Positions 3,623 through 54,518 of a DNA stretch of 64,000 nt are shown here, piece by piece. Numbering within the stretch: the first letter of the stretch is position 1; each line of letters opens with the position of its first letter. Below the pieces are notes generated by a model, which made no database searches, was not told the origin of the DNA, and saw only the letters and a list, made by a program, of their open reading frames with translations. A program made the position numbers and the translations under genes. This DNA comes from a bacterium (GTDB lineage Bacteria > SAR324 > XYD2-FULL-50-16): NCBI GenBank assembly GCA_032250835.1, contig JAVVEA010000002.1, positions 341,881-405,880 on the forward strand, in the 5' to 3' direction.

Positions 3623-3732
3623 GAGGTTGGGCGGAGGGTTGTCGGTTCGGGCCAGCGGGCTGAATTTGGGGCTGCTTAAAATACAGTAGGTTGTCTATAT
3701 CCCTGGCTTATAAGGGGCCGAGGGTACTTCTC

Positions 3733-3769
3733 TTGACGATAGTTCCTAATATGCGTACAATATACGCAT
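3733..3769 (+). promoter_or_regulatory. Sigma70 promoter of the TA operon with an operator-like palindrome over the -10
   Basis: TTGACG (3733) - 17 bp - TACAAT (3756); inverted repeat ATGCGTA-N5-TACGCAT at 3751-3769; GGAGG RBS follows. Confidence 0.75.
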
Positions 3770-3784
3770 GACACCGGAGGAAAC

Positions 3785-4045
3785 ATGAGCAAGACCCGCA
3801 TCAATCTCAGCTTAGATGCCGATTTGGCCAGCTTCGCCAAGGACTTCGCCGCTGAGAACCGCACCACCGTATCGGAGGTGTTCACCCAATATCTCTTGGG
3901 GCTCAAGCGGCACGCCATGGGACGCCCCCAGCCAACCTTCCTGGCCGACCCAGCCTTTAACGAGGCCTTGGCGCAAGCCCAGCAACGCCTGCAACAAGGA
4001 AAGGCGAGCTGGTCTAGCTTCGATGAAGTCTTTAAAGAGCCTTGA
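3785..4045 (+). CDS. Ribbon-helix-helix antitoxin (DUF6364-like)
   Basis: N-terminal KTRINLSLD..LA..AK.FA....TTVSEVF RHH pattern; C-terminal SFDEVF; stop overlaps the toxin start (TGATG). Confidence 0.75.
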   Translation: MSKTRINLSLDADLASFAKDFAAENRTTVSEVFTQYLLGLKRHAMGRPQPTFLADPAFNEALAQAQQRLQQGKASWSSFDEVFKEP

Positions 4046-4356
4046 TGGAGGCGCTCTTTGAACGGGATTTCGTCAAAGCACTGAAAAAACATGCCTCGAT
4101 CAAAAAAGCCGTGGAGCGCAAGGTGTTGCCGATCATCGAGCACCCCTTGGTGTTCGGCGAGCCCCTTCAGGGAAACTGGCGGGGTTATTATTCCTGCCCG
4201 GTGCAACGAAATTTCATCATCATCTATCTGTACTGCGCCGCCTGTCGCTCCAAACAAGACGATCTAGCGGTGCAATGTAGCGACTGCAGCGAGCGAGCGG
4301 ATCAGACGTTAAAGTTTCTTGTGCTGGGGCCCCATGATCAAGCCTATGGTTTGTAA
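4045..4356 (+). CDS. RelE/ParE-superfamily toxin with CxxC...CxxC insertion
   Basis: F.K.LKK, GEPLQGNWRGYYS, FIIIY and terminal LGPHDQAY fit RelE/YafQ; insertion CAAC-x10-CSDC. Confidence 0.75.
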   Translation: MEALFERDFVKALKKHASIKKAVERKVLPIIEHPLVFGEPLQGNWRGYYSCPVQRNFIIIYLYCAACRSKQDDLAVQCSDCSERADQTLKFLVLGPHDQAYGL

Positions 4357-4529
4357 GCACAATATCTTGGGTTTGATTCGTAGCGAAACCTTGTGAGTGT
4401 GCTGTCGCCGGATTACCAGGGGGCTGAATTGGGGGCTGGCCAAAATACAGTAGGTTGCCTAGTTTAAAGGAGCGGTGCCGGTAAACTACCAATCCATTGG
4501 GGGCCAGTGCTCGAACCGGATAAAAAAAG

Positions 4530-4934
4530 ATGGGAACGGAAATGGATGCGAATGAACGGCCCGATAAGGGCGAAGACGAAAAGTTTTGTGCCGATTGCGG
4601 CCAATTGATCCACAAGAAGGCCGAAATCTGCCCCAAATGCGGGGTGCGGCAAATGGCCCCGCCAACAAATCTGGTCCAAACTCGGGGGCGTCAACGGATA
4701 GTAGCCGCGCTGTTCGCCTTTTTCCTCGGCGCGATAGGCATCCACCAATTCTACCTGGGGAGGGTCTTACTGGGTGTTGTCTACTTGCTCCTCTGCTGGA
4801 CTTTCATCCCCGCCATCATCGCCTTCATTGAAGCAATCCTGCTGTTAATTATGAGCGACGAAACCTTCGACTATAAATTCAACCCCCAACTGGTGGCTTT
4901 ATCTAAGCGGCAACAGGGCGAGACAGCCACCTGA
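4530..4934 (+). CDS. TM2 (NINE) domain membrane protein with N-terminal zinc ribbon
   Basis: KFCADCG...AEICPKCG, then AALFAFFLGAIGIHQFYLG and LLLCWTFIPAII. Confidence 0.85.
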   Translation: MGTEMDANERPDKGEDEKFCADCGQLIHKKAEICPKCGVRQMAPPTNLVQTRGRQRIVAALFAFFLGAIGIHQFYLGRVLLGVVYLLLCWTFIPAIIAFIEAILLLIMSDETFDYKFNPQLVALSKRQQGETAT

Positions 4935-4987
4935 CTTAGGGTGGAATGGGTGTTTACCTTCTGATTTCAACACAACCTATGTTTTAC

Positions 4988-5172
4988 AAAATCAGAGGAC
5001 AGCATACCTATTTTTTCGCAGCGGGGCGCACGGAGTTTGCAAGTACGTGATTCCTTGCCCAGATGGTAGCAAGTAGCGAATACAGAAGCTTGATTGGTGG
5101 AAAATCAGGGGACAGATACCTATTTTTCGCAGCGGGGTGCAAGGAGTCTGCAAGTAGGCGATTCCTTCCCAG
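4988..5172 (-). repeat. Two diverged ~73-bp direct repeats (4988-5062, 5101-5172), each beginning with a reverse CTGTCC-type motif
   Basis: aaaatcag(a/g)ggacag..atacctattttt.cgcagcgggg.gca.ggagt.tgcaagta...gattcctt.cccag; 6 mismatches and 3 gaps by hand. Confidence 0.9.
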
Positions 5173-5416
5173 TATAGAAATGGGCGAAACAAAATATGAG
5201 CAATATATTTTGGCACGATCAAGTGTTTTCGCTAAAGCCGCTAATCTCACGAAGGAAAGAATTTATTTCGTGTCTGAAAGTCGAAAGGACAAGGACTAAG
5301 AGTAGTCGTCCTATCTCCTGATTTCCCCCCTGCTTTTTTATGTAGGGACATGTCATGACATAAAGACAGGACAGAAGTTACGCCCATGTCGTGGAAATAG
5401 ATATACTGTCACCTGA

Positions 5417-5760
5417 TTAACGAAACAGGCCGCTGATCAAGGTCTGATAATTCACCCTCTCGTTGGCGGCCATGATCTTGATTCCGCCCCGGTCCGCTTT
5501 GGGGCGGATGATGGCGCGTTTCGATTTTTCAAGCTGTTGCGGGCCAGTCCTGAGCCTCTTTTTCGACCCCCTCAGGGCCCCTTCGCCGCCCCCAACCCGC
5601 TCACCACGCCCCAACTCGCCCAACAACTCCGCTTCTTCCGCGCCCAAGCGCTTGTGAGCTTGGGGGACGGTAAGGCTTTGTTTCTGGGGCTTGTGGAGAA
5701 ATTTGCGGTCGGATTCTTCAAGTAGCAATCAATGGTTTGGGCGGTTTCTACAAGAGGCAA
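5417..5760 (-). pseudogene. Decayed BrnT/CopG(BrnA-like) toxin-antitoxin remnant
   Basis: EEAELL..L.RGE and KRAIIRPKADRGGIKIMAANERVNYQTLISGL resemble CopG-type antitoxins; upstream fragments (EESDRKFL, PSPKLT in another frame) resemble a BrnT C-terminus; no clean starts. Confidence 0.5.
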
Positions 5761-5798
5761 TCAAAAGCTGAGGTGGCCGTACCTGAAAATCCGAGGCA

Positions 5799-6036
5799 AT
5801 AGGGCGTTCTAGGCCGCAGCCCTTAATCTCCTGAACGCAACCAGCAAGCGAAGGCATTTCATCCCATTTAATTCTATGTGTTAGGCTGTATAAATTGGTA
5901 TTCTGTCACCTGAGTTTATAGGGCGCTTTAGAGCACAGCAGCAAATGACTCGCGCATAACCGGCAAGTGAAGGAATTTCATTCCATTAAATTCTGTGGAT
6001 TAGGTTGTATAAATTGGTGTTCTGTCGCCAGATTTA
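5799..6036 (+). repeat. Tandem duplication of a ~119-bp unit, each copy ending in the CTGTC(A/G)CC(T/A)GA motif
   Basis: 5839-5913 vs 5958-6032 are 63/75 identical; atagggcg starts both units (5799, 5918). Confidence 0.9.
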
Positions 6037-6239
6037 GAATCTCATTTCCAGCTACAAAAAATTACAAGCAGTTAGCTAAAAAATGATCGCGGACCTCAGG
6101 CAAAGAAACTGAAGCCCAGGGCCGGATTCCGACTTTTTTACAGGTGGGTTTGGCAAGACCCCAATCTTTAGTCCAATTCTTAAGTAAGACTTAGCATGGG
6201 ATGACGTACCCGCCTTGGACGTTGCCCTAAAAGGAAAGA

Positions 6240-8969
6240 TCAGACCCCGCCAATCCGTTGATCAATGGCTTCCAAAAAAAACTTTTGTTCGCGTTGGGCC
6301 CGAGCCAGCAGGTCGGCATCGAGCTGAACTCCCTTGCTAGCCAGCAACTCGCAGACTTCCATCACCTCCGAAAGTGCTAGCCCACCAACTTGGGCGGCAG
6401 TTCCCTTAAGCTCGTGCGCCATCTCAAAGGCCTCGTCGAAGCGCTGCTCGGACCAGTGCTCAAATAGCTGCTCAACTCCGTGGGCATGTAACTCGCGGTA
6501 AAGCTCAAGCAGCCGATCGAGTCTTTCGGCCTTGCCACTGAAGTATTCCAAGGCCACAGAGAAATCGACTGCCCGGGTACTCTCAGGTTTACTCATTCGT
6601 TCACCGACCAGCGGTTGCTCCTCATTTTTCCGAGAAAGCCAGCGGATCAGACAGGCTTCCAGTAGAGCGACTTCAATCGGCTTGGTAATGATGTCGTCCA
6701 TCCCCACCGAACGGCATTTTTCCTGCTCCTCCAAAAAGGCATGGGCAGTCATCGCCACGATGGGGATACGCCGCGCCGCTTGCGTATCGGCTTCGTATTT
6801 TCTGATTGCTTGGGCCGCCGCGCGTCCGTCCATCTGAGGCATCTGGATATCCATCAACACCAAATCGTAGGCTTTAGACTGAAACTGCTCGGTTGCTGCG
6901 ACTCCGTTATCGACGACATCGACCTTCAAGCCGTAGGATTCTAACAGGTCGACGGCCAACTCCTGATTGATTTTATTGTCCTCGGCCAGCAGTAGACTGG
7001 CTCCGACGATGGCCTGCAATGCCACCGGTTTTCTTTGGGGCGAATCTGGATACAGGCTGGATTTAGAGTCTGTGAAGAGATCAATGATCATTTGGCGTAG
7101 GTGGCTGGGACCGACCGGTTTGAACAGTTGGGCATCGAAGGAGCCTTTTTCGTAGATTTCGTCGATGCTGGTCGGGTCGGAACCGGAGACCAAAACAATT
7201 TTTGGCGTTGGTTGCAGTTTTGGATCTTGGCGAAGGATCTGGCACAATTGTGAGCCATCTATCCCAGGCATCCTCAGATCCAGCAGCACCAGATCGACCG
7301 GACCGCTTTGTTCGTAATGGTTGTAGATACTCTCCAACGCTTCCTCACCGGACTCAAAGAACTCCGTTGGCCGTTCGAATGGGGGCATGATCTCTTTCAG
7401 GTGCTCCAGCATCATCGGGTTGTCCTCGACCACGTATACTTTGAGAGCAAGCAGTTCAGGGGGATATTCGACAGGGTAATCGGCTCCAGGAGACTGCCGG
7501 CCAAAGGGCATCGAAACCGTGAATTTCGTCCCCTGGTCCGGCTGGCTGGAAACACCCATTTTACCACCCATGGCTTCGACCAACCGTTTGGCGATTGACA
7601 AACCCAGTCCTGTGCCACCGTATTTTCGGCTGGTCGAGCTGTCGGCTTGGCTAAAGGGTTGGTACAATTTTTCTATAGTCTGGACTTCCATGCCGACGCC
7701 AGTATCGGTCACCTCAAAGACTAATTCGACCCAATCCCTTTGCGCCTGTATTTGGCTGATCGACAGCGTTACAGATCCCGCTTTGGTATATTTAATTCCG
7801 TTCGAAAGCAGGTTGATCAAGACCTGTTCGACCCGCAGGATATCCCCCTTCAACTCTACCGATATATCCGGTTCTACGTCGAAGCGAAGTTCGATTTTCT
7901 TGCGGCGTGCTAACACCCCCACCGCCGAAGCTACGTTGCCCAGTAGGACCGATAGGTCAAAGCAACTATTTTCCAACTCTAATTGCTGGGCCTCAATCTT
8001 TGAAAAATCCAAGACGTCGTTGACTACCCGCAACAGCAACTGAGCCGATAGGTCGACTTTTTTAAGATAGTTGGCCTGTTTGACGTCTAAGTCAGTTTTA
8101 AGGCAAAGCTGATTCATCCCGATGATCGCGTTGAGCGGTGTGCGGATTTCATGACTCATATTGGCCAGGAATTCTGATTTGGCTTGAGTTGCCGCTTGGG
8201 CCTCCTTTTGAGCCAGGAACAAGACGCCGATTTTTTGAGAAAAGAGCCTGAAGAAGTAAAATAACAAAACGAAGTAAGCCAAGGCGCGTAGAAAATGCCA
8301 AAGCCACCAAAGCGGGTCCCAAAGGGTTGAGCTTTCAAAGAGGATCCCCGCCATGCCAAAGAGAAGACAGTGATTGGCAAGAATGATCTGATCTTCACGG
8401 TGGGTTTGTGCATTCCGCTTGGTGAAGGTCCACCAGGCGAAGATAAAGCCGACGCCTCCGGTAACGTTGAGCACAATTGCCGCTGGAGTGAATCGTCCCA
8501 TCTCCAACATGGCAGGCAGTAAGCTCTCATTGGCCATCGAAAAAATGCCCAGTACTATGGCGATGGCCGAGGCCGCAAAGGCGATCTGGTTGGCTGCCCG
8601 GTTGAGGTGGTCACGATGGACGGCTACCAAAGCGATCATCATACCGCCAAAAAAGGTTGCTGTACTATGCAGCCAGACGAAGTTGTTTCCAGGGCTGGTG
8701 CAGGAATGAAATCCGTCGAGTAAGCCCATTGATAAGAGCGCAGCTGCCACCCAGAGATAGTAGGTTTCGACTTGGCGGTCGCGCAGTAGCAGCAAAATGA
8801 ACGTTGAGATGATCAGTGCCGCCAAACTGCCCACCGACTCGATGAAGCCATGAAAAAGCTCATGATTCCACCTCGAGTCGGGAAAGAAGTGCATCAAACT
8901 GAACCCGAGCAGCAGCGGCAATACCAAAGAGGGCAGCAGCGAGGTGAGCGACGAGATCAGGATTTTCAT
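6240..8969 (-). CDS. Membrane-bound hybrid histidine kinase (multi-TM sensor, HisKA, HATPase, two REC, Hpt)
   Basis: [15 protein letters not shown]-box, [29 protein letters not shown] and LMDIQMP receivers, AHELKG Hpt. Start taken as MKILIS (8969); the track extends to 9095. Confidence 0.93.
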
Positions 8970-9316
8970 TAGAATTGTCCGAGCCGAGTTCAGTGTATAG
9001 GGAGGTGATCGAGCGAATCCATTGTCTTTCCCATTGCGTAAAAGGATAGCATTGCCCTTCCCAAAGGGAAAGATATCAGATGCTAGATCTGACATGGTGC
9101 CAATCTCTGGACCCTTTTCGGGCGCAACGTCAATACCGAAGGGAGATCAAATTTCTGGTGACAGATTAGTAACAACTCAACCGGCTTCAACCGGTTTTCA
9201 GTGGACTTGAGTGGATTCAGGACAGCTTAGTGAATGGTCTGTCGTTACTGATGGGGACTGAAATTAGCCTGTATATCAGAGCTTCGGGGAGAATCGAGGA
9301 TTTTTGTGGCTTCCTT

Positions 9317-9354
9317 TTCCCAAGCTGAGAGTCGCGAGTTCGAATCTCGTTTCC
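9317..9354 (+). other. 3' half of a tRNA-Gly(CCC) gene; probable att-site relic
   Basis: TTCCCAAGCTGAGAGTCGCGAGTTCGAATCTCGTTTCC: anticodon loop, T-arm GCGAG-TTCGAAT-CTCGT; no D-arm, 5' half or CCA. Confidence 0.75.
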
Positions 9355-9400
9355 TAACAAACTTTGTTCGTTTTTCATAAACATCAAAGGCAGCAGTGCG

Positions 9401-9534
9401 AGTTCCACTCCAGTTCCAGAAAGTTCCAGCGAAGGGTAAAAATCCGCAAAAAAGAGAAGAAAACGGAAAAGGACGGCTCAAGCAGGCGACCCGGAAGCCC
9501 ATGGCTAAGGGCTTTTGGAATCTGGCTTGGAACT
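9401..9534. repeat. Helically spaced AGTTCCA repeats (integrase arm-site-like)
   Basis: AGTTCCA at 9401, 9412, 9422; inverted TGGAACT at 9528 and near-match TGGAATC at 9516; immediately 3' of selC. Confidence 0.55.
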
Positions 9535-9563
9535 CGGCGGCCCACTGAACTGCAATTTGTAGA

Positions 9564-9662
9564 TGGCGGAGGCGTGAAAGAATCGAACTTCCCAGGGAAC
9601 TTTTACAGCCCCCTCACGCGGTTTTGAAGACCGGGGGGTGCACCAGCAACCCAACCGCCTCC
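9564..9662 (-). tRNA. selC: tRNA-Sec (anticodon UCA)
   Basis: Reverse complement GGAGGCGG...CGGT-CTTCAAA-ACCG..., long variable arm AGGGGGCT/AGTTCCCT, GGAAG-TTCGATT-CTTTC, ends GCCA; 99 nt; 4-nt TGGT D-loop. Confidence 0.93.
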
Positions 9663-51707: not shown

Positions 51708-54518
51708 CTACTCGGAAAGGGGCGCAATCTCTTCGTTTCTAGTGTCTCGCACGATGGCGTCGTTTCGGTACATCAAGACATATCCTTGATCGGTGCCGGT
51801 GACCAGGTCTAGGTCGCCGTCGTGGTCTAGATCGGCGGCCACGGGGTTGCTGCCCTTAGGCGGGCTGATCCGGTCGCCGATTTCGGGCTGCAAGGTCCAG
51901 GTCCCCGAAAGGTCGGCAGCTTCGTTTTTATAAAACAGGATCTTCCCATTGTCTGACCCGACCATTAAATCAGGAATCTCGTCGTTATTCAAGTCGGCAA
52001 AGGCGGGCGTCGAGCCGATTCCCAGGTCCATTTTCTGGTAGTCCCTACGCACGATCACAAAACGGTTGGATTCGTTGCTGATGAAGGTCAGCTTCCCGTT
52101 GAGGGTACCGACCAGCAGGTCCAAAATGGCGTCATGGTTCAGGTCCATCACCGTCGGCTTGGCGTTGGGGCCGAGCCACAATCCCTTGAAGTAATCCTTT
52201 TCTAAGATAAAGTTGGGCTCTTCGGTGGTGCCTTGGTTGACGTAAAACCGCAACCGGCCCAGAGAAGTGCCGACCACCAAGTCTAGGTCGCCGTCTTGGT
52301 CAAGGTCATATAAGACCGGCGTGGTGTTGGCTAAATCCGAAGTGTTCAAGAAATCCTCGGAGACCAGTTCAAAGTTCCACTGTTGGTCTGTCCCCTGATT
52401 TTTGTAATAATAAATTTTTCCGCTTTTTGAGCCGATCAGCAGGTCGAGATCTCCATCGGCGTCTAAATCGCCGAAGGTGGGGCTGGATTTTTGGATCAGG
52501 CGGTTCTTGACCAAGTGAACCGGAGTCTTGTTAAAGCGGGGTTCGGCGACGATCTTTTGGACGCCCTCTTCCATCATAAAGGCTTCAAAGGGCTGTTCTT
52601 CCTCTTCGGCAGGTGCTTCGCCGGTCGCTTCGGTGAGGTCTAACTCAATGGGCCCTTCGACGTTTTCCACCACCAAGGAACCGGACTTCTGGTCGATGCT
52701 GTTGTCCACCACCACCTGCATATCTTCAGCACCGGAGCCGATGCCGCCGTTCAAATAGAGCAAAAAGTCCCCTTCATCGTTGCCCAAAAGCAGGTCTAGT
52801 TCCTTGTCGCCGTTAAAGTCGGTGAAGTAGGGGTGGCTTAAAAGGTCCACGTTGAATTGCCCAAAGGCTTTATCGGTAGTGTCCCAGTTGAGCTGGTCTT
52901 TGGCGTCAGGACCGGGGGATATATAAGTTAATAGTTTGCCGTCTTCGCCGCCGACGATCAAGTCCACATACTTGTCCCCGTTCCAGTCGAGCAAAGCGGC
53001 CACCGAATTTTGAGAGGTCTTGGCAGAGGCGAAGCGGGTTGATTCTAGGGCGAAGACCGGGTCTTTGGCGGTGCCTTTGTTGAGGTAGAGCACCACCCGG
53101 CCAGTGAAGTTACCGACCAGTAGGTCCAAATCGCCGTCCCCATCGATGTCTACCAATCGGGGAACTGAGTTGGAACCGACATCGATCTGGAAGTAGGTTT
53201 TGTCTTTTAGCTCCCACTTCGGCTCGGTCTTGCTGCCCACATTTTCTATATAGGCTAGCAGGCCTTGTTTGTCGCCCACCAGCAAATCCAAATCACCGTC
53301 TCCATCCAGATCGCCTAGAGCGGGCGCGCTGTTTTCCATGCCGGTGATGAACAGTAATTCCTCAGCGACCAGCGTCCAGTCCGGCTCTTGGGCGTTGCCA
53401 TCGTTGCGGAAGAAGTTGAGGTTGCCCGCCTTTTCACCAACGATCCAATCGGGGTCTCCGTCTCCGTCTAGGTCGCCGGTGGCGATCGAGGCCCGGTGGC
53501 CGGTGATCACTAATTTGTTGAAGTTGAAGATATTGGTGTTTACGCTCCAAAGCACCCGGCGGCCCAACTGCTCGCGGTTTTCATAGAGCGCCACGGTGGG
53601 GTTGGAGCTACCCATCACCATGTCGTCGTCGCCGTCTTGGTCGAAGTCAATAAAGTAAGGGGCCGACTCGCCGCCCACGTCGATCAGCAGATAGTTTTCG
53701 GACTTGAGCTTCCAGTCAGGAAAGAATCGGTCCCCTTGGTTCTCGAAATAAGAGATGGTGCCGTTCTTCATGCCCACAAAGAGGTCTAAGTCGCCGTCAT
53801 TGTCCCAGTCCGTCAGACTCGGCGAGGCGTGGGTCTCTAAGCCAAACTCGGCAACCTTTTGGGGGGTGTCTTTGTTGAAGGCCGGTTTTTTTCGGGTGCC
53901 TCGGTTATAAAAGAGGAAAACCTTGCCCTCTACGGTGCCCACGATCAGGTCGATTTTTCGTTGCAGGTTCACATCGGCAAAGACCGGCACTGAGTTGTGC
54001 CCCACATAAATCCCTTCAAACTTCGCCGTAAGGAGCTTAAAGACCGGGATCAGGTTGTTGCCGATGTTCTCGAAGTGCCAAATATTGCCTTGGGCGCTGC
54101 CAATAAAGAGGTCTAAGTCGCCATCGTTGTCGATATCCACCAAAAAGGGGGCCGAGCGCTCGCCCACGTCGATAGCGTTCCAGACCTTGACCTTGCGGAC
54201 ATTACGGCGCTGTTCGAAGATGCCTTTATACTGTTGGGTAACCAAGACGTAGTCCGCCTTGTCGCGGGTGCCTCGGTTCTCGAAGTAGGCCAACTCACCG
54301 TTGGCTTGGCCCATGAAGATGTCTAAGTCACCATCCCCGTCGATATCGCCAAAGGCCAGCTTGGAGTTGCGCATCTCGCGCGCGAAGATCAGCGCCCGCT
54401 CACCGTTGAGTTTGCTGTAATACTGCTGGGTCCAGGCATATTTCATGTCCTTCTGCTGGGCCTGTAATACCGGGGCCAGCAAAAATGCCAAGAGCAGCAA
54501 GAGGAGGTTGGGTCTCAT
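51708..54518 (-). CDS. Exported FG-GAP/VCBS-repeat protein (15 DxDxDG-type repeats)
   Basis: Signal peptide MRPNLLLL..LQA; repeats such as GDLDGDGDLDLLVG...G.L.Y..N.G. Confidence 0.9.
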   Translation of the reverse strand: MRPNLLLLLLAFLLAPVLQAQQKDMKYAWTQQYYSKLNGERALIFAREMRNSKLAFGDIDGDGDLDIFMGQANGELAYFENRGTRDKADYVLVTQQYKGIFEQRRNVRKVKVWNAIDVGERSAPFLVDIDNDGDLDLFIGSAQGNIWHFENIGNNLIPVFKLLTAKFEGIYVGHNSVPVFADVNLQRKIDLIVGTVEGKVFLFYNRGTRKKPAFNKDTPQKVAEFGLETHASPSLTDWDNDGDLDLFVGMKNGTISYFENQGDRFFPDWKLKSENYLLIDVGGESAPYFIDFDQDGDDDMVMGSSNPTVALYENREQLGRRVLWSVNTNIFNFNKLVITGHRASIATGDLDGDGDPDWIVGEKAGNLNFFRNDGNAQEPDWTLVAEELLFITGMENSAPALGDLDGDGDLDLLVGDKQGLLAYIENVGSKTEPKWELKDKTYFQIDVGSNSVPRLVDIDGDGDLDLLVGNFTGRVVLYLNKGTAKDPVFALESTRFASAKTSQNSVAALLDWNGDKYVDLIVGGEDGKLLTYISPGPDAKDQLNWDTTDKAFGQFNVDLLSHPYFTDFNGDKELDLLLGNDEGDFLLYLNGGIGSGAEDMQVVVDNSIDQKSGSLVVENVEGPIELDLTEATGEAPAEEEEQPFEAFMMEEGVQKIVAEPRFNKTPVHLVKNRLIQKSSPTFGDLDADGDLDLLIGSKSGKIYYYKNQGTDQQWNFELVSEDFLNTSDLANTTPVLYDLDQDGDLDLVVGTSLGRLRFYVNQGTTEEPNFILEKDYFKGLWLGPNAKPTVMDLNHDAILDLLVGTLNGKLTFISNESNRFVIVRRDYQKMDLGIGSTPAFADLNNDEIPDLMVGSDNGKILFYKNEAADLSGTWTLQPEIGDRISPPKGSNPVAADLDHDGDLDLVTGTDQGYVLMYRNDAIVRDTRNEEIAPLSE

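What the first reader, a model, noticed from the sequence alone, without database searches (positions are those of the whole stretch)
3652..9164. Cassette-like array punctuated by a short CTGTC(A/C/G)(C/T)C(T/A/G)GA motif
Seen: an 11-bp core (approximate full site aaatAGGTAT-CTGTCNCCTGA-TTT) at 4402(+), 4992(-), 5105(-), 5406(+), 5903(+), 6022(+) and 9154(-), with degenerate copies near 3695, 4924, 4954 and 5311. The copies sit at the edges of the TA pair, the TM2 gene, the decayed TA and the hybrid kinase. All three local duplications begin or end at a copy. I saw no attC hairpins, integron integrase or transposase. Inference: an integron-like gene capture and shuffling platform using short sites acted on in trans. 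I recall similar CTGTCCCC/CTGACCCC motifs beside REP-associated HUH (Y1) transposases, but could not verify this here.
Basis: partly seen in the sequence, partly recalled or inferred. Interest (0 to 1): 0.72.

Follow-up and report, generated by a model that had tools for sequence, protein, structure and literature searches.

The report
Transposase end repeats stitching accessory genes
The short repeats are the end sequences of a known but little-studied single-strand-cutting transposase whose gene lies elsewhere in this genome; their fixed tips are joined to cut-off pieces of neighbouring DNA, which likely reflects that enzyme reshuffling non-essential gene patches rather than an integron-like cassette system.

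Summary
The motif is real. All seven copies lie at the stated positions; five are full ~26-bp sites, while 4402 and 9154 keep only the core. It is the terminal inverted repeat (TIR) flanking the genome's only detected Y1/HUH transposase gene (contig C43). That makes it a TIRtron/TIRYT (Di Nocera 2013), with about 70 clustered copies genome-wide.

The 'integron-like' part does not: no IntI was found, orientations are mixed, junctions cut into genes and a tRNA, and homologous cargo in relatives lacks TIRs.

What the footprints add:
- The site ends at CCTGATT(T).
- Sites share flanks on their inner side.
- The tip is fused to variable points, giving short stutters and 46-270-bp direct duplications.
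- One 5.6-kb Rhs block between older mini-elements is flanked by a 97%-identical 228-bp duplication, so cargo probably can be carried.

In a related genus with real integrons, identical 52-bp TIR dimers sit inside cassette-like arrays and cut attC-like sites, so they arrived second. The scan reported this repeat family before, in this genome and others. No reads or close strains were available.

The parts
3652..3697 (+). 46-bp segment X, upstream copy of the DNA that follows the 4402 site
   Evidence: D4, 87%; copy 750 nt upstream, junction offset 0
3785..4045 (+). DUF6364 antitoxin-like gene of a type II TA pair
4045..4356 (+). RelE/ParE-like toxin gene; homologues in G010 and G008 (two copies) have no TIR next to them
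4402..4415 (+). TIR core only (inner half decayed); its tip is joined to the second copy of X
   Evidence: (9.4 bits)
4416..4461 (+). second copy of X, starting at the TIR tip
4530..4934 (+). zinc-ribbon + TM2 domain gene; no match at E<=1e-15 in 87 other genomes searched
4924..4934 (+). degenerate TIR core whose TGA is the TM2 gene's stop codon
4989..5014 (-). full TIR (38.6 bits), end of the outer copy of a 113-bp tandem duplication
5102..5127 (-). full TIR (34.1 bits); with 5406+ it forms an outward-facing pair 291 bp apart, a likely non-autonomous element
5311..5321 (+). degenerate TIR core
5394..5419 (+). full TIR (38.0 bits); its tip is fused into the 3' end of the decayed antitoxin gene
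5417..5686 (-). decayed CopG-type antitoxin gene lacking about the last 10 codons of its intact paralogues on C13 and C33
5799..5916 (+). first copy of a 119-bp tandem duplication, ending in a full TIR (core 5903, 35.7 bits)
5918..6035 (+). second copy of the duplication, ending in a full TIR (core 6022, 30.4 bits)
6036..6137 (+). copy (84%) of the 3' end of tRNA-Gly(CCC) plus its downstream DNA on C14, cut in the T-arm at the TIR tip
6240..9095 (-). hybrid histidine kinase (MASE3-like sensor, HisKA, HATPase, two receivers, Hpt) inside a tRNA-Gly att-bounded block
9154..9164 (-). weak TIR core (6.9 bits on the full matrix)
9317..9354 (+). 38-bp tRNA-Gly(CCC) fragment (97%), att-like right border of the kinase block
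9564..9662 (-). tRNA-Sec gene bordering the variable region

Best explanation
The repeats are terminal inverted repeats of a TIRtron, the same sequence that flanks the genome's single detected Y1/HUH transposase gene on contig C43, and that enzyme likely acts on them in trans, cutting single-stranded DNA at the fixed CCTGATT(T) tip and joining it to loosely chosen DNA nearby. Shown: identity of the motif with the transposase's TIRs; outward-facing pairs around the gene and around short mini-elements; a fixed tip at which homology to other DNA starts; flanks shared on the inner (AAAT) side; stutters and long direct duplications that end or begin at the tip. Inferred: joining the tip a short way upstream gives 13-119-bp stutters; joining it further away gives deletions that truncate neighbours (the antitoxin, tRNA-Gly) or 46-270-bp direct duplications; use of two outward ends occasionally moves a cargo block. 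The copies would pile up in dispensable DNA (TA modules, islands, cassette arrays) because only there is such cutting tolerated, which makes the region look like a cassette array. The chemistry is taken from related Y1 enzymes and is untested for this subclass.
For: One Y1_Tnp match in the genome, flanked on both sides by the motif. 26 of 49 homologous loci have such cores on both sides, many with stutters at the outer tip. The closest homologue (64%, G085) has perfect-consensus TIRs, and its genome has 97 pattern matches against 0 controls. An inverted core lies within 130 nt on the inner side of 22 of 72 sites and on the outer side of 1 of 72. Inner flanks are shared by 25 of 83 sites (10 of them only through dimer partners) and outer flanks by 2 of 83. 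11 of 15 anchored copies of a long hairpin-rich repeat end in a TIR. 9 of 21 downstream homology blocks start within -12..+8 nt of the tip, inside genes or a tRNA. An upstream same-strand copy of the post-tip DNA is found for 6 of 84 sites (5 places, one marginal at 33 bp) against 4 of 246 controls. On C5 a 228-bp repeat (222/228 identical) flanks a block whose two mini-elements are only 65/81 identical. L105 shows a >=290-bp repeat starting 4 nt after the right TIR. In G085, 3 of 7 aligned junctions with congeners or a paralogous copy break within 2 nt of a tip, and 2 attC-like sites are cut at the same position. Y1 chemistry: PMC3479197 (passages).
Against: No activity was observed: no sequencing run was listed and no close strain exists in the held data. 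G007 and G001 carry these TIRs without a detected close transposase, so co-occurrence is imperfect; loss or incomplete assembly could explain it. Long duplications at the tip were seen at only 2 clear and 1 unclear of 45 TIRtron loci elsewhere. A left end for the window's TA block was sought at 3710-3735 and is not significant (6% of background). Short stutters could come from replication slippage, and their apparent end at +2..+4 (10 of 10) is partly built in because the motif itself ends there. 4 of 7 G085 junctions do not coincide with the tip.
Confidence: 0.7

Rival explanations
1. An integron-like platform: the domesticated Y1 enzyme uses TIRs or TIR dimers as recombination sites to capture whole gene modules between inward-facing sites and stack them in arrays.
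For: Across gaps over 150 bp, adjacent opposite-strand sites face the cargo in 14 of 17 cases in G000 and 20 of 21 in the fetched G085 regions. Cargo is rich in TA and defence-like genes. HigBA on C14 is trimmed by TIRs about 16 and 10 nt from its homology limits. G007 has sites at the orthologous phzF and cyclase positions with different cargo, and a HicAB between facing sites at another place than in G000. Dimer polarity is uniform within each of two G085 arrays (4/4 and 4/4), and dimers fold into strong hairpins.
Against: Facing orientation follows automatically from outward-facing mini-elements landing between genes. Array edges face inward only 21 to 12. Junctions cut mid-gene. Cargo homologues in relatives lack TIRs (16 loci gave only two weak hits, none at a cargo border). 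Outer flanks are not shared between sites. The G085 arrays contain attC-like sites and that genome has IntI. The GC contrast across sites (53.1 vs 49.3%) is confounded by the GC-rich long repeat on the inner side.
Confidence: 0.17
2. Passive remnants: TIR mini-elements once inserted into accessory DNA, and the duplications and truncations around them arose afterwards by slippage, homologous recombination between repeats and ordinary island decay, with no end-directed joining.
For: Copies in G000 are diverged, and several are reduced to the core. The region is independently an integration hot spot with tRNA-Gly att pieces and tRNA-Sec. Direct repeats promote host recombination (established knowledge).
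Against: Host recombination does not explain why homology to unrelated genes starts within a few nt of the tip in 9 of 21 cases, nor the non-tandem 46-270-bp duplications that begin there, nor two attC-like sites cut at one position.
Confidence: 0.1
3. The sites are binding sites of a regulator, or terminators, placed at the borders of accessory operons.
For: The sites are mostly intergenic and often follow gene 3' ends (crude gene calls). The sequence is weakly palindromic.
Against: They flank the transposase gene as inverted repeats across phyla, occur in stutters and in identical 52-54-bp dimers, are not called as terminators, and single sites show no stable fold or convincing covariation.
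Confidence: 0.03

Closest known systems
TIRtron / TIRYT, TIR-associated tyrosine transposases (Di Nocera et al. 2013, PMC3733652; passages read) = probably TnpA-Y1 subclass 2.1 (Quentin et al. 2018, PMC6006769; abstract, one passage and first part of section 15 read) = Group 1 RAYT (PMC5581495, passages; equivalence stated in 10.1101/2020.03.09.984088)
   Same: Y1 HUH gene flanked by inverted repeats with the GGGGWSAS-type motif; moderately abundant dispersed TIR family arranged as singles, dimers and clusters; single gene copy.
   Different: The passages read describe no cut point, stutters, long direct duplications, cargo carriage or insertion into attC-like sites. The core here is mostly GGTGACAG, a one-base variant. 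Figures and supplements of these papers were not seen and may bear on this.
REP/REPIN-RAYT systems (TnpA-REP; PMC3479197, passages)
   Same: Single-copy Y1 enzyme acting in trans on a dispersed repeat; inverted dimers that fold into hairpins; cleavage at a distance and strand transfer offer a model for variable second endpoints.
   Different: No GTAG-footed hairpin in the single site; the fixed junction is at the repeat's own tip; tens rather than hundreds of copies.
Integrons / attC arrays (recalled; listings only)
   Same: Unrelated small genes, many TA modules, separated by repeats at variable loci.
   Different: No IntI found in G000, no attC-like match in G000, mixed orientation, mid-gene junctions, HUH rather than tyrosine recombinase.
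MITE-bounded composite elements such as TIME-COMP (PMC13367494; search listing and start of abstract only)
   Same: Cargo between two miniature elements moved by a transposase supplied in trans, as on contig C5.
   Different: Tn3-family enzyme there (short target duplications, recalled); Y1 HUH enzyme and a 228-bp duplication here.

Membership tests
TIRtron / TIRYT | Y1 transposase with HUH motif and catalytic Tyr | tested here: met
   219-aa ORF, PF01797 42.9 bits over cut-off 23, NHIH and YVERNP motifs
TIRtron / TIRYT | Gene flanked by terminal inverted repeats, not REPs | tested here: met
   sites about 50 nt before the start and at the stop, 32.1 and 38.5 bits
TIRtron / TIRYT | GGGGWSAS motif in the TIR | tested here: met
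   exact GGGGACAG in copies such as window 5105-5115; GGTGACAG (one change) in most copies and in both gene-flanking TIRs
TIRtron / TIRYT | Dispersed TIR family as singles, dimers, clusters | tested here: met
   68 sites >=20 bits; 8 short inverted dimers among adjacent pairs
TnpA-Y1 subclass 2.1 | Subclass motifs, length about 238 aa and C-terminal HTH extension | tested here: inconclusive
   class 2 Y---NP motif and 219 aa fit; no HTH family hit in Pfam; NF047646 63 bits, under its cut-off of 80; the subclass profiles were not available
TIRtron / TIRYT | Enzyme cleaves and joins its TIRs | not testable with these tools
   needs biochemistry; only genomic footprints here
Integron | Integron integrase IntI | tested here: not met
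   best TIGR02249 match 67 bits against cut-off 265; none at E<=1e-30 while 8 of 19 family genomes pass the cut-off; genome 97% complete
Integron | attC hairpin sites, one per cassette, all in one direction | tested here: not met
   mixed orientations; single sites do not fold; an attC-like profile from relatives finds nothing in G000 (home-made profile from 6 copies)
Integron | Cassette borders lie outside whole genes and travel with the gene | tested here: not met
   mid-gene junctions; cargo homologues without TIRs
REP/REPIN-RAYT | GTAG- or CGTC-tagged hairpin REP beside the gene | tested here: not met
   consensus has no such tag; 1 of 8 proposed pairs shows covariation, p=0.019 uncorrected
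REP/REPIN-RAYT | Inverted doublets forming hairpins, single-copy enzyme | tested here: met
   dimers fold at z -5 to -12; one gene found
IS200/IS605 | Short TnpA with Y---Q motif, subterminal hairpins, no inverted ends, no target duplication | tested here: not met
   Y---NP motif, inverted ends, direct duplications; class features and recall

The most novel reading that the evidence does not exclude
TIRYT enzymes are in-trans genome shufflers with an undescribed reaction: each TIR tip is joined independently on single-stranded DNA, so blocks of genes between outward-facing ends move with target duplications of tens to hundreds of bases. Their mini-elements home to existing TIRs and to attC hairpins, so over time they take over integron arrays and keep replacing TA and defence modules at fixed chromosomal spots after IntI is lost.
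Probability: 0.25. Interest if true: 0.75.

Novelty: new member of a known kind. Interest (0 to 1): 0.42.

Why it matters
Subclass 2.1 Y1 transposases occur in 14.9% of the species sampled by Quentin et al., yet my literature searches found no biochemical study of them. This genome and G085 supply what a bench test needs: a predicted cut point (CCTGATT|), natural substrates (52-bp dimers) and predicted products (stutters, adjacent deletions, long direct duplications, cargo movement). If these hold, a HUH enzyme moving DNA between inverted ends with long variable duplications would be an unusual route to accessory-gene turnover. The window's array itself is one more example of a family already described and already noted by this scan.

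Tried and rejected
Reads: the look-up of sequencing runs listed no run, so no circle or empty-site test was possible; this is no evidence either way.

Close strains: no same-genus genome was among the 20 relatives returned, and the metagenome scan with the RNase II neighbour gave only 25-29% relatives. Empty-site searches at three G000 clusters in five other genera were uninformative because gene order is rearranged.

Single-site hairpin: not supported. GC asymmetry as evidence of capture: set aside as confounded by the long repeat. A decayed left end for the window's TA block at 3710-3735: not significant. Relation of the window's 113-bp units to the end of the long repeat: no profile hit. 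Rfam found only tRNA-Sec in the region and nothing for the long repeat. Promoter and terminator scans were at shuffle level.

The gene caller is crude, so its 19 of 71 'intragenic' count is not used. A class-wide search around G089 at E<=1e-60 returned 0 of 209, missing even G089 itself, so the threshold was too strict and the result is uninformative. PMC8266576 holds none of the four terms searched. The outputs were cut; counts come from the compact reruns. In one search two reverse-strand artefact hits were dropped before counting cluster edges.
Full report
OBSERVATION. A matrix trained on the genome extends the site to about 26 bp, consensus AAAATAGGTATA-CTGTCACCTGA-TTT, with 68 sites at 20 bits or more against none in the reversed genome. 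57 of 72 sites have a neighbour within 3 kb, against a random mean of 7.8. Five window copies are full sites; 4402 and 9154 keep only the core. The three duplications are real and end or begin 3-4 nt past a core.

IDENTITY. The genome gives one Y1_Tnp match, a 219-aa ORF on contig C43 with NHIH and YVERNP motifs. The motif flanks it on both sides as inverted repeats, AAAT half inside and CCTGATT tip outside. This is the TIRtron/TIRYT arrangement of Di Nocera et al. 2013, who also describe TIR families in dimers and clusters (PMC3733652, passages). Quentin et al. place most TIRYTs in subclass 2.1 (PMC6006769). Among 49 homologous loci, 26 have cores on both sides by a simple pattern, and many carry stutters at the outer tip. 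The closest homologue found, in G085 (64%), has perfect-consensus TIRs, and that genome has 97 pattern matches against 0 controls. Against strict co-occurrence, G007 and G001 carry the TIRs without a detected close enzyme, and G008 has a close enzyme with a variant TIR and no match to this pattern.

WHICH SIDE MOVES. An inverted core lies within 130 nt on the AAAT side of 22 of 72 sites and on the tip side of 1 of 72. Among adjacent opposite-strand pairs 150 bp or less apart, 8 face outward and none inward. G004 holds two identical 54-bp dimers 186 bp apart. AAAT-side flanks are shared by 25 of 83 sites, of which 10 only through dimer partners, 13 through a long hairpin-rich repeat and 2 through another repeat; tip-side flanks are shared by 2 of 83. 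11 of 15 anchored copies of the long repeat end in a TIR, 8 of them 48-52 nt on. The unit is therefore the site plus the DNA on its AAAT side, ending at the tip; it is not the gene that the tip faces.

WHAT THE TIP IS JOINED TO. Of 70 sites examined, 21 have a downstream block homologous to DNA elsewhere in the genome, and 9 of these start within -12 to +8 nt of the tip, a bin that covers under a tenth of the range. They start inside genes. Window 5406 removes about ten codons of a CopG-type antitoxin; window 6022 cuts a tRNA-Gly copy in its T-arm; two sites on C39 and C43 cut copies of a 142-aa gene that is intact on C2. For 6 of 84 sites (5 places, one marginal) the DNA after the tip is a direct copy of DNA 0.4-5.8 kb upstream, against 4 of 246 controls: 46 bp in the window, about 120 bp on C1, 270 bp on C14 and 228 bp on C5. 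On C5 the repeat (222/228 identical) abuts both outward tips of a 5.6-kb block holding an Rhs-core gene. The two mini-elements at the block's ends are only 65/81 identical, so the block is older than the duplication and probably moved, or was rejoined, as a unit. A Phycisphaerae TIRtron shows a repeat of at least 290 bp starting 4 nt after its right TIR, but only 2 clear and 1 unclear of 45 such loci show this.

THE WINDOW. Read this way it holds: X, the TA pair, a decayed site at 4402 and a second X; the TM2 gene, whose stop lies in a degenerate core; an outward-facing pair 5115/5406 with a 113-bp stutter on the left; a truncated antitoxin; a 119-bp stutter; then a kinase block bounded by two tRNA-Gly pieces (6036-6137 and 9317-9354) beside tRNA-Sec. 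The kinase block thus looks like an older tRNA-targeted island into which a TIR tip was joined. A left end for the TA block was not established.

CASSETTE PLATFORM? In favour: across longer gaps opposite-strand sites face the cargo in 14 of 17 cases. Cargo is rich in TA modules and includes TIR-domain, PLD-like and CARF-like genes. HigBA on C14 is trimmed closely by two TIRs. G007 has sites at two orthologous positions with other cargo. Against: no IntI; array edges face inward only 21 to 12. The window's TA pair lacks TIRs in all three homologues found in 87 other genomes. HigBA (88% identical), TumE-type and CopG-type modules lack them in G007.

G085 gives the clearest test. Twenty regions chosen for their site matches held 91 sites, with 32 short outward dimers separating unrelated genes. 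Those genes occur in congeners or elsewhere in G085 at scattered loci, and the 16 loci fetched had no TIR at a cargo border. Homology breaks within 2 nt of a tip in 3 of 7 junctions aligned. G085 has IntI, and 2 of 7 attC-like matches in its fetched regions are cut at the same position, 1-3 nt from a tip (the attC label rests on recalled TAAC...GTTA borders and a six-copy profile). There the dimers are later arrivals in cassette-like arrays, not their builders.

MECHANISM. Y1 enzymes nick single-stranded DNA, hold the 5' end on a tyrosine and free a 3'-OH; TnpA-REP can cut at a distance and transfer strands (PMC3479197, passages). I infer that the TIRYT frees the 3'-OH at CCTGATT(T) and joins it to a second, loosely specified nick. 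Near targets give stutters; far ones give deletions or long duplications; two outward ends can move what lies between. Survival in dispensable DNA explains the clustering. The dimer folds into a strong hairpin but the single site does not, so how the site is recognised is open. None of this chemistry is tested for the subclass. [quoted passage not shown]

NOVELTY. The family is known, and earlier notes of this scan reached the TIRtron reading in eight listed findings from other genomes and for two other pieces of this genome. Eight literature searches found no report of a TIRYT cut point, long duplications, cargo carriage or attC insertion; subscription papers, figures and supplements were not covered. 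Verdict: a new member of a known kind with useful mechanistic footprints; interest 0.42. The bolder reading has probability 0.25.

Noticed in passing
G000, about 39 loci, e.g. L067:5025-5610 and 6700-7300; none in the window: A modular, hairpin-rich non-coding repeat of 50-1300 bp with no Rfam match in five loci scanned; among 20 relatives only two weak hits in G007. 11 of 15 anchored copies end in a TIR.
   Followed up: partly
L064:2200-8230 (G000:C5:40200-46227): 5.6-kb Rhs-core/lipoprotein block between two TIR dimers, flanked by a 228-bp direct repeat at 97%: the best case of cargo moved between TIR ends.
   Followed up: yes
L203, L204 (G085:C84): Arrays of unrelated genes separated by near-identical 52-bp TIR dimers of uniform polarity within each array; two dimers cut an attC-like repeat at the same position. 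A good system for experiments.
   Followed up: partly
window 6036-9662: Nested integration hot spot: a tRNA-Gly(CCC) att-bounded kinase block beside tRNA-Sec, whose downstream DNA (9400-9563) is partly conserved in G003 and G006.
   Followed up: partly
L090:84-667; L078:2588-2711; L075:1-90: IS remnants lie a few tens of bases from TIR tips: IS66-like fragments in G007 and an IS3-like end in G000 (both labels recalled from the translations, not tested), and a 77-bp sequence shared by many G000 contig ends.
   Followed up: no
L071:2776-2790; window 4924-4934 and 5417-5420: TIR sequence supplies or creates the stop codon of adjacent genes (a CopG-type antitoxin on C38, the TM2 gene, the decayed antitoxin).
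   Followed up: partly
L209:2775-8325 (G085:C56): About ten tandem genes for 106-132-aa proteins with signal-peptide-like starts, interspersed with longer TIR dimers; a 127-bp duplication starts at a TIR tip.
   Followed up: no
L078:2721-6912, L067:3616-4983, L076:2848-3723: Defence-like cargo next to TIRs: a PLD-like two-gene module, a TIR-domain protein and a CARF-like protein (partial PADLOC matches).
   Followed up: partly
window 52388-52398: An eighth core match inside a 958-aa ORF, without the AAAT half; probably chance.
   Followed up: yes
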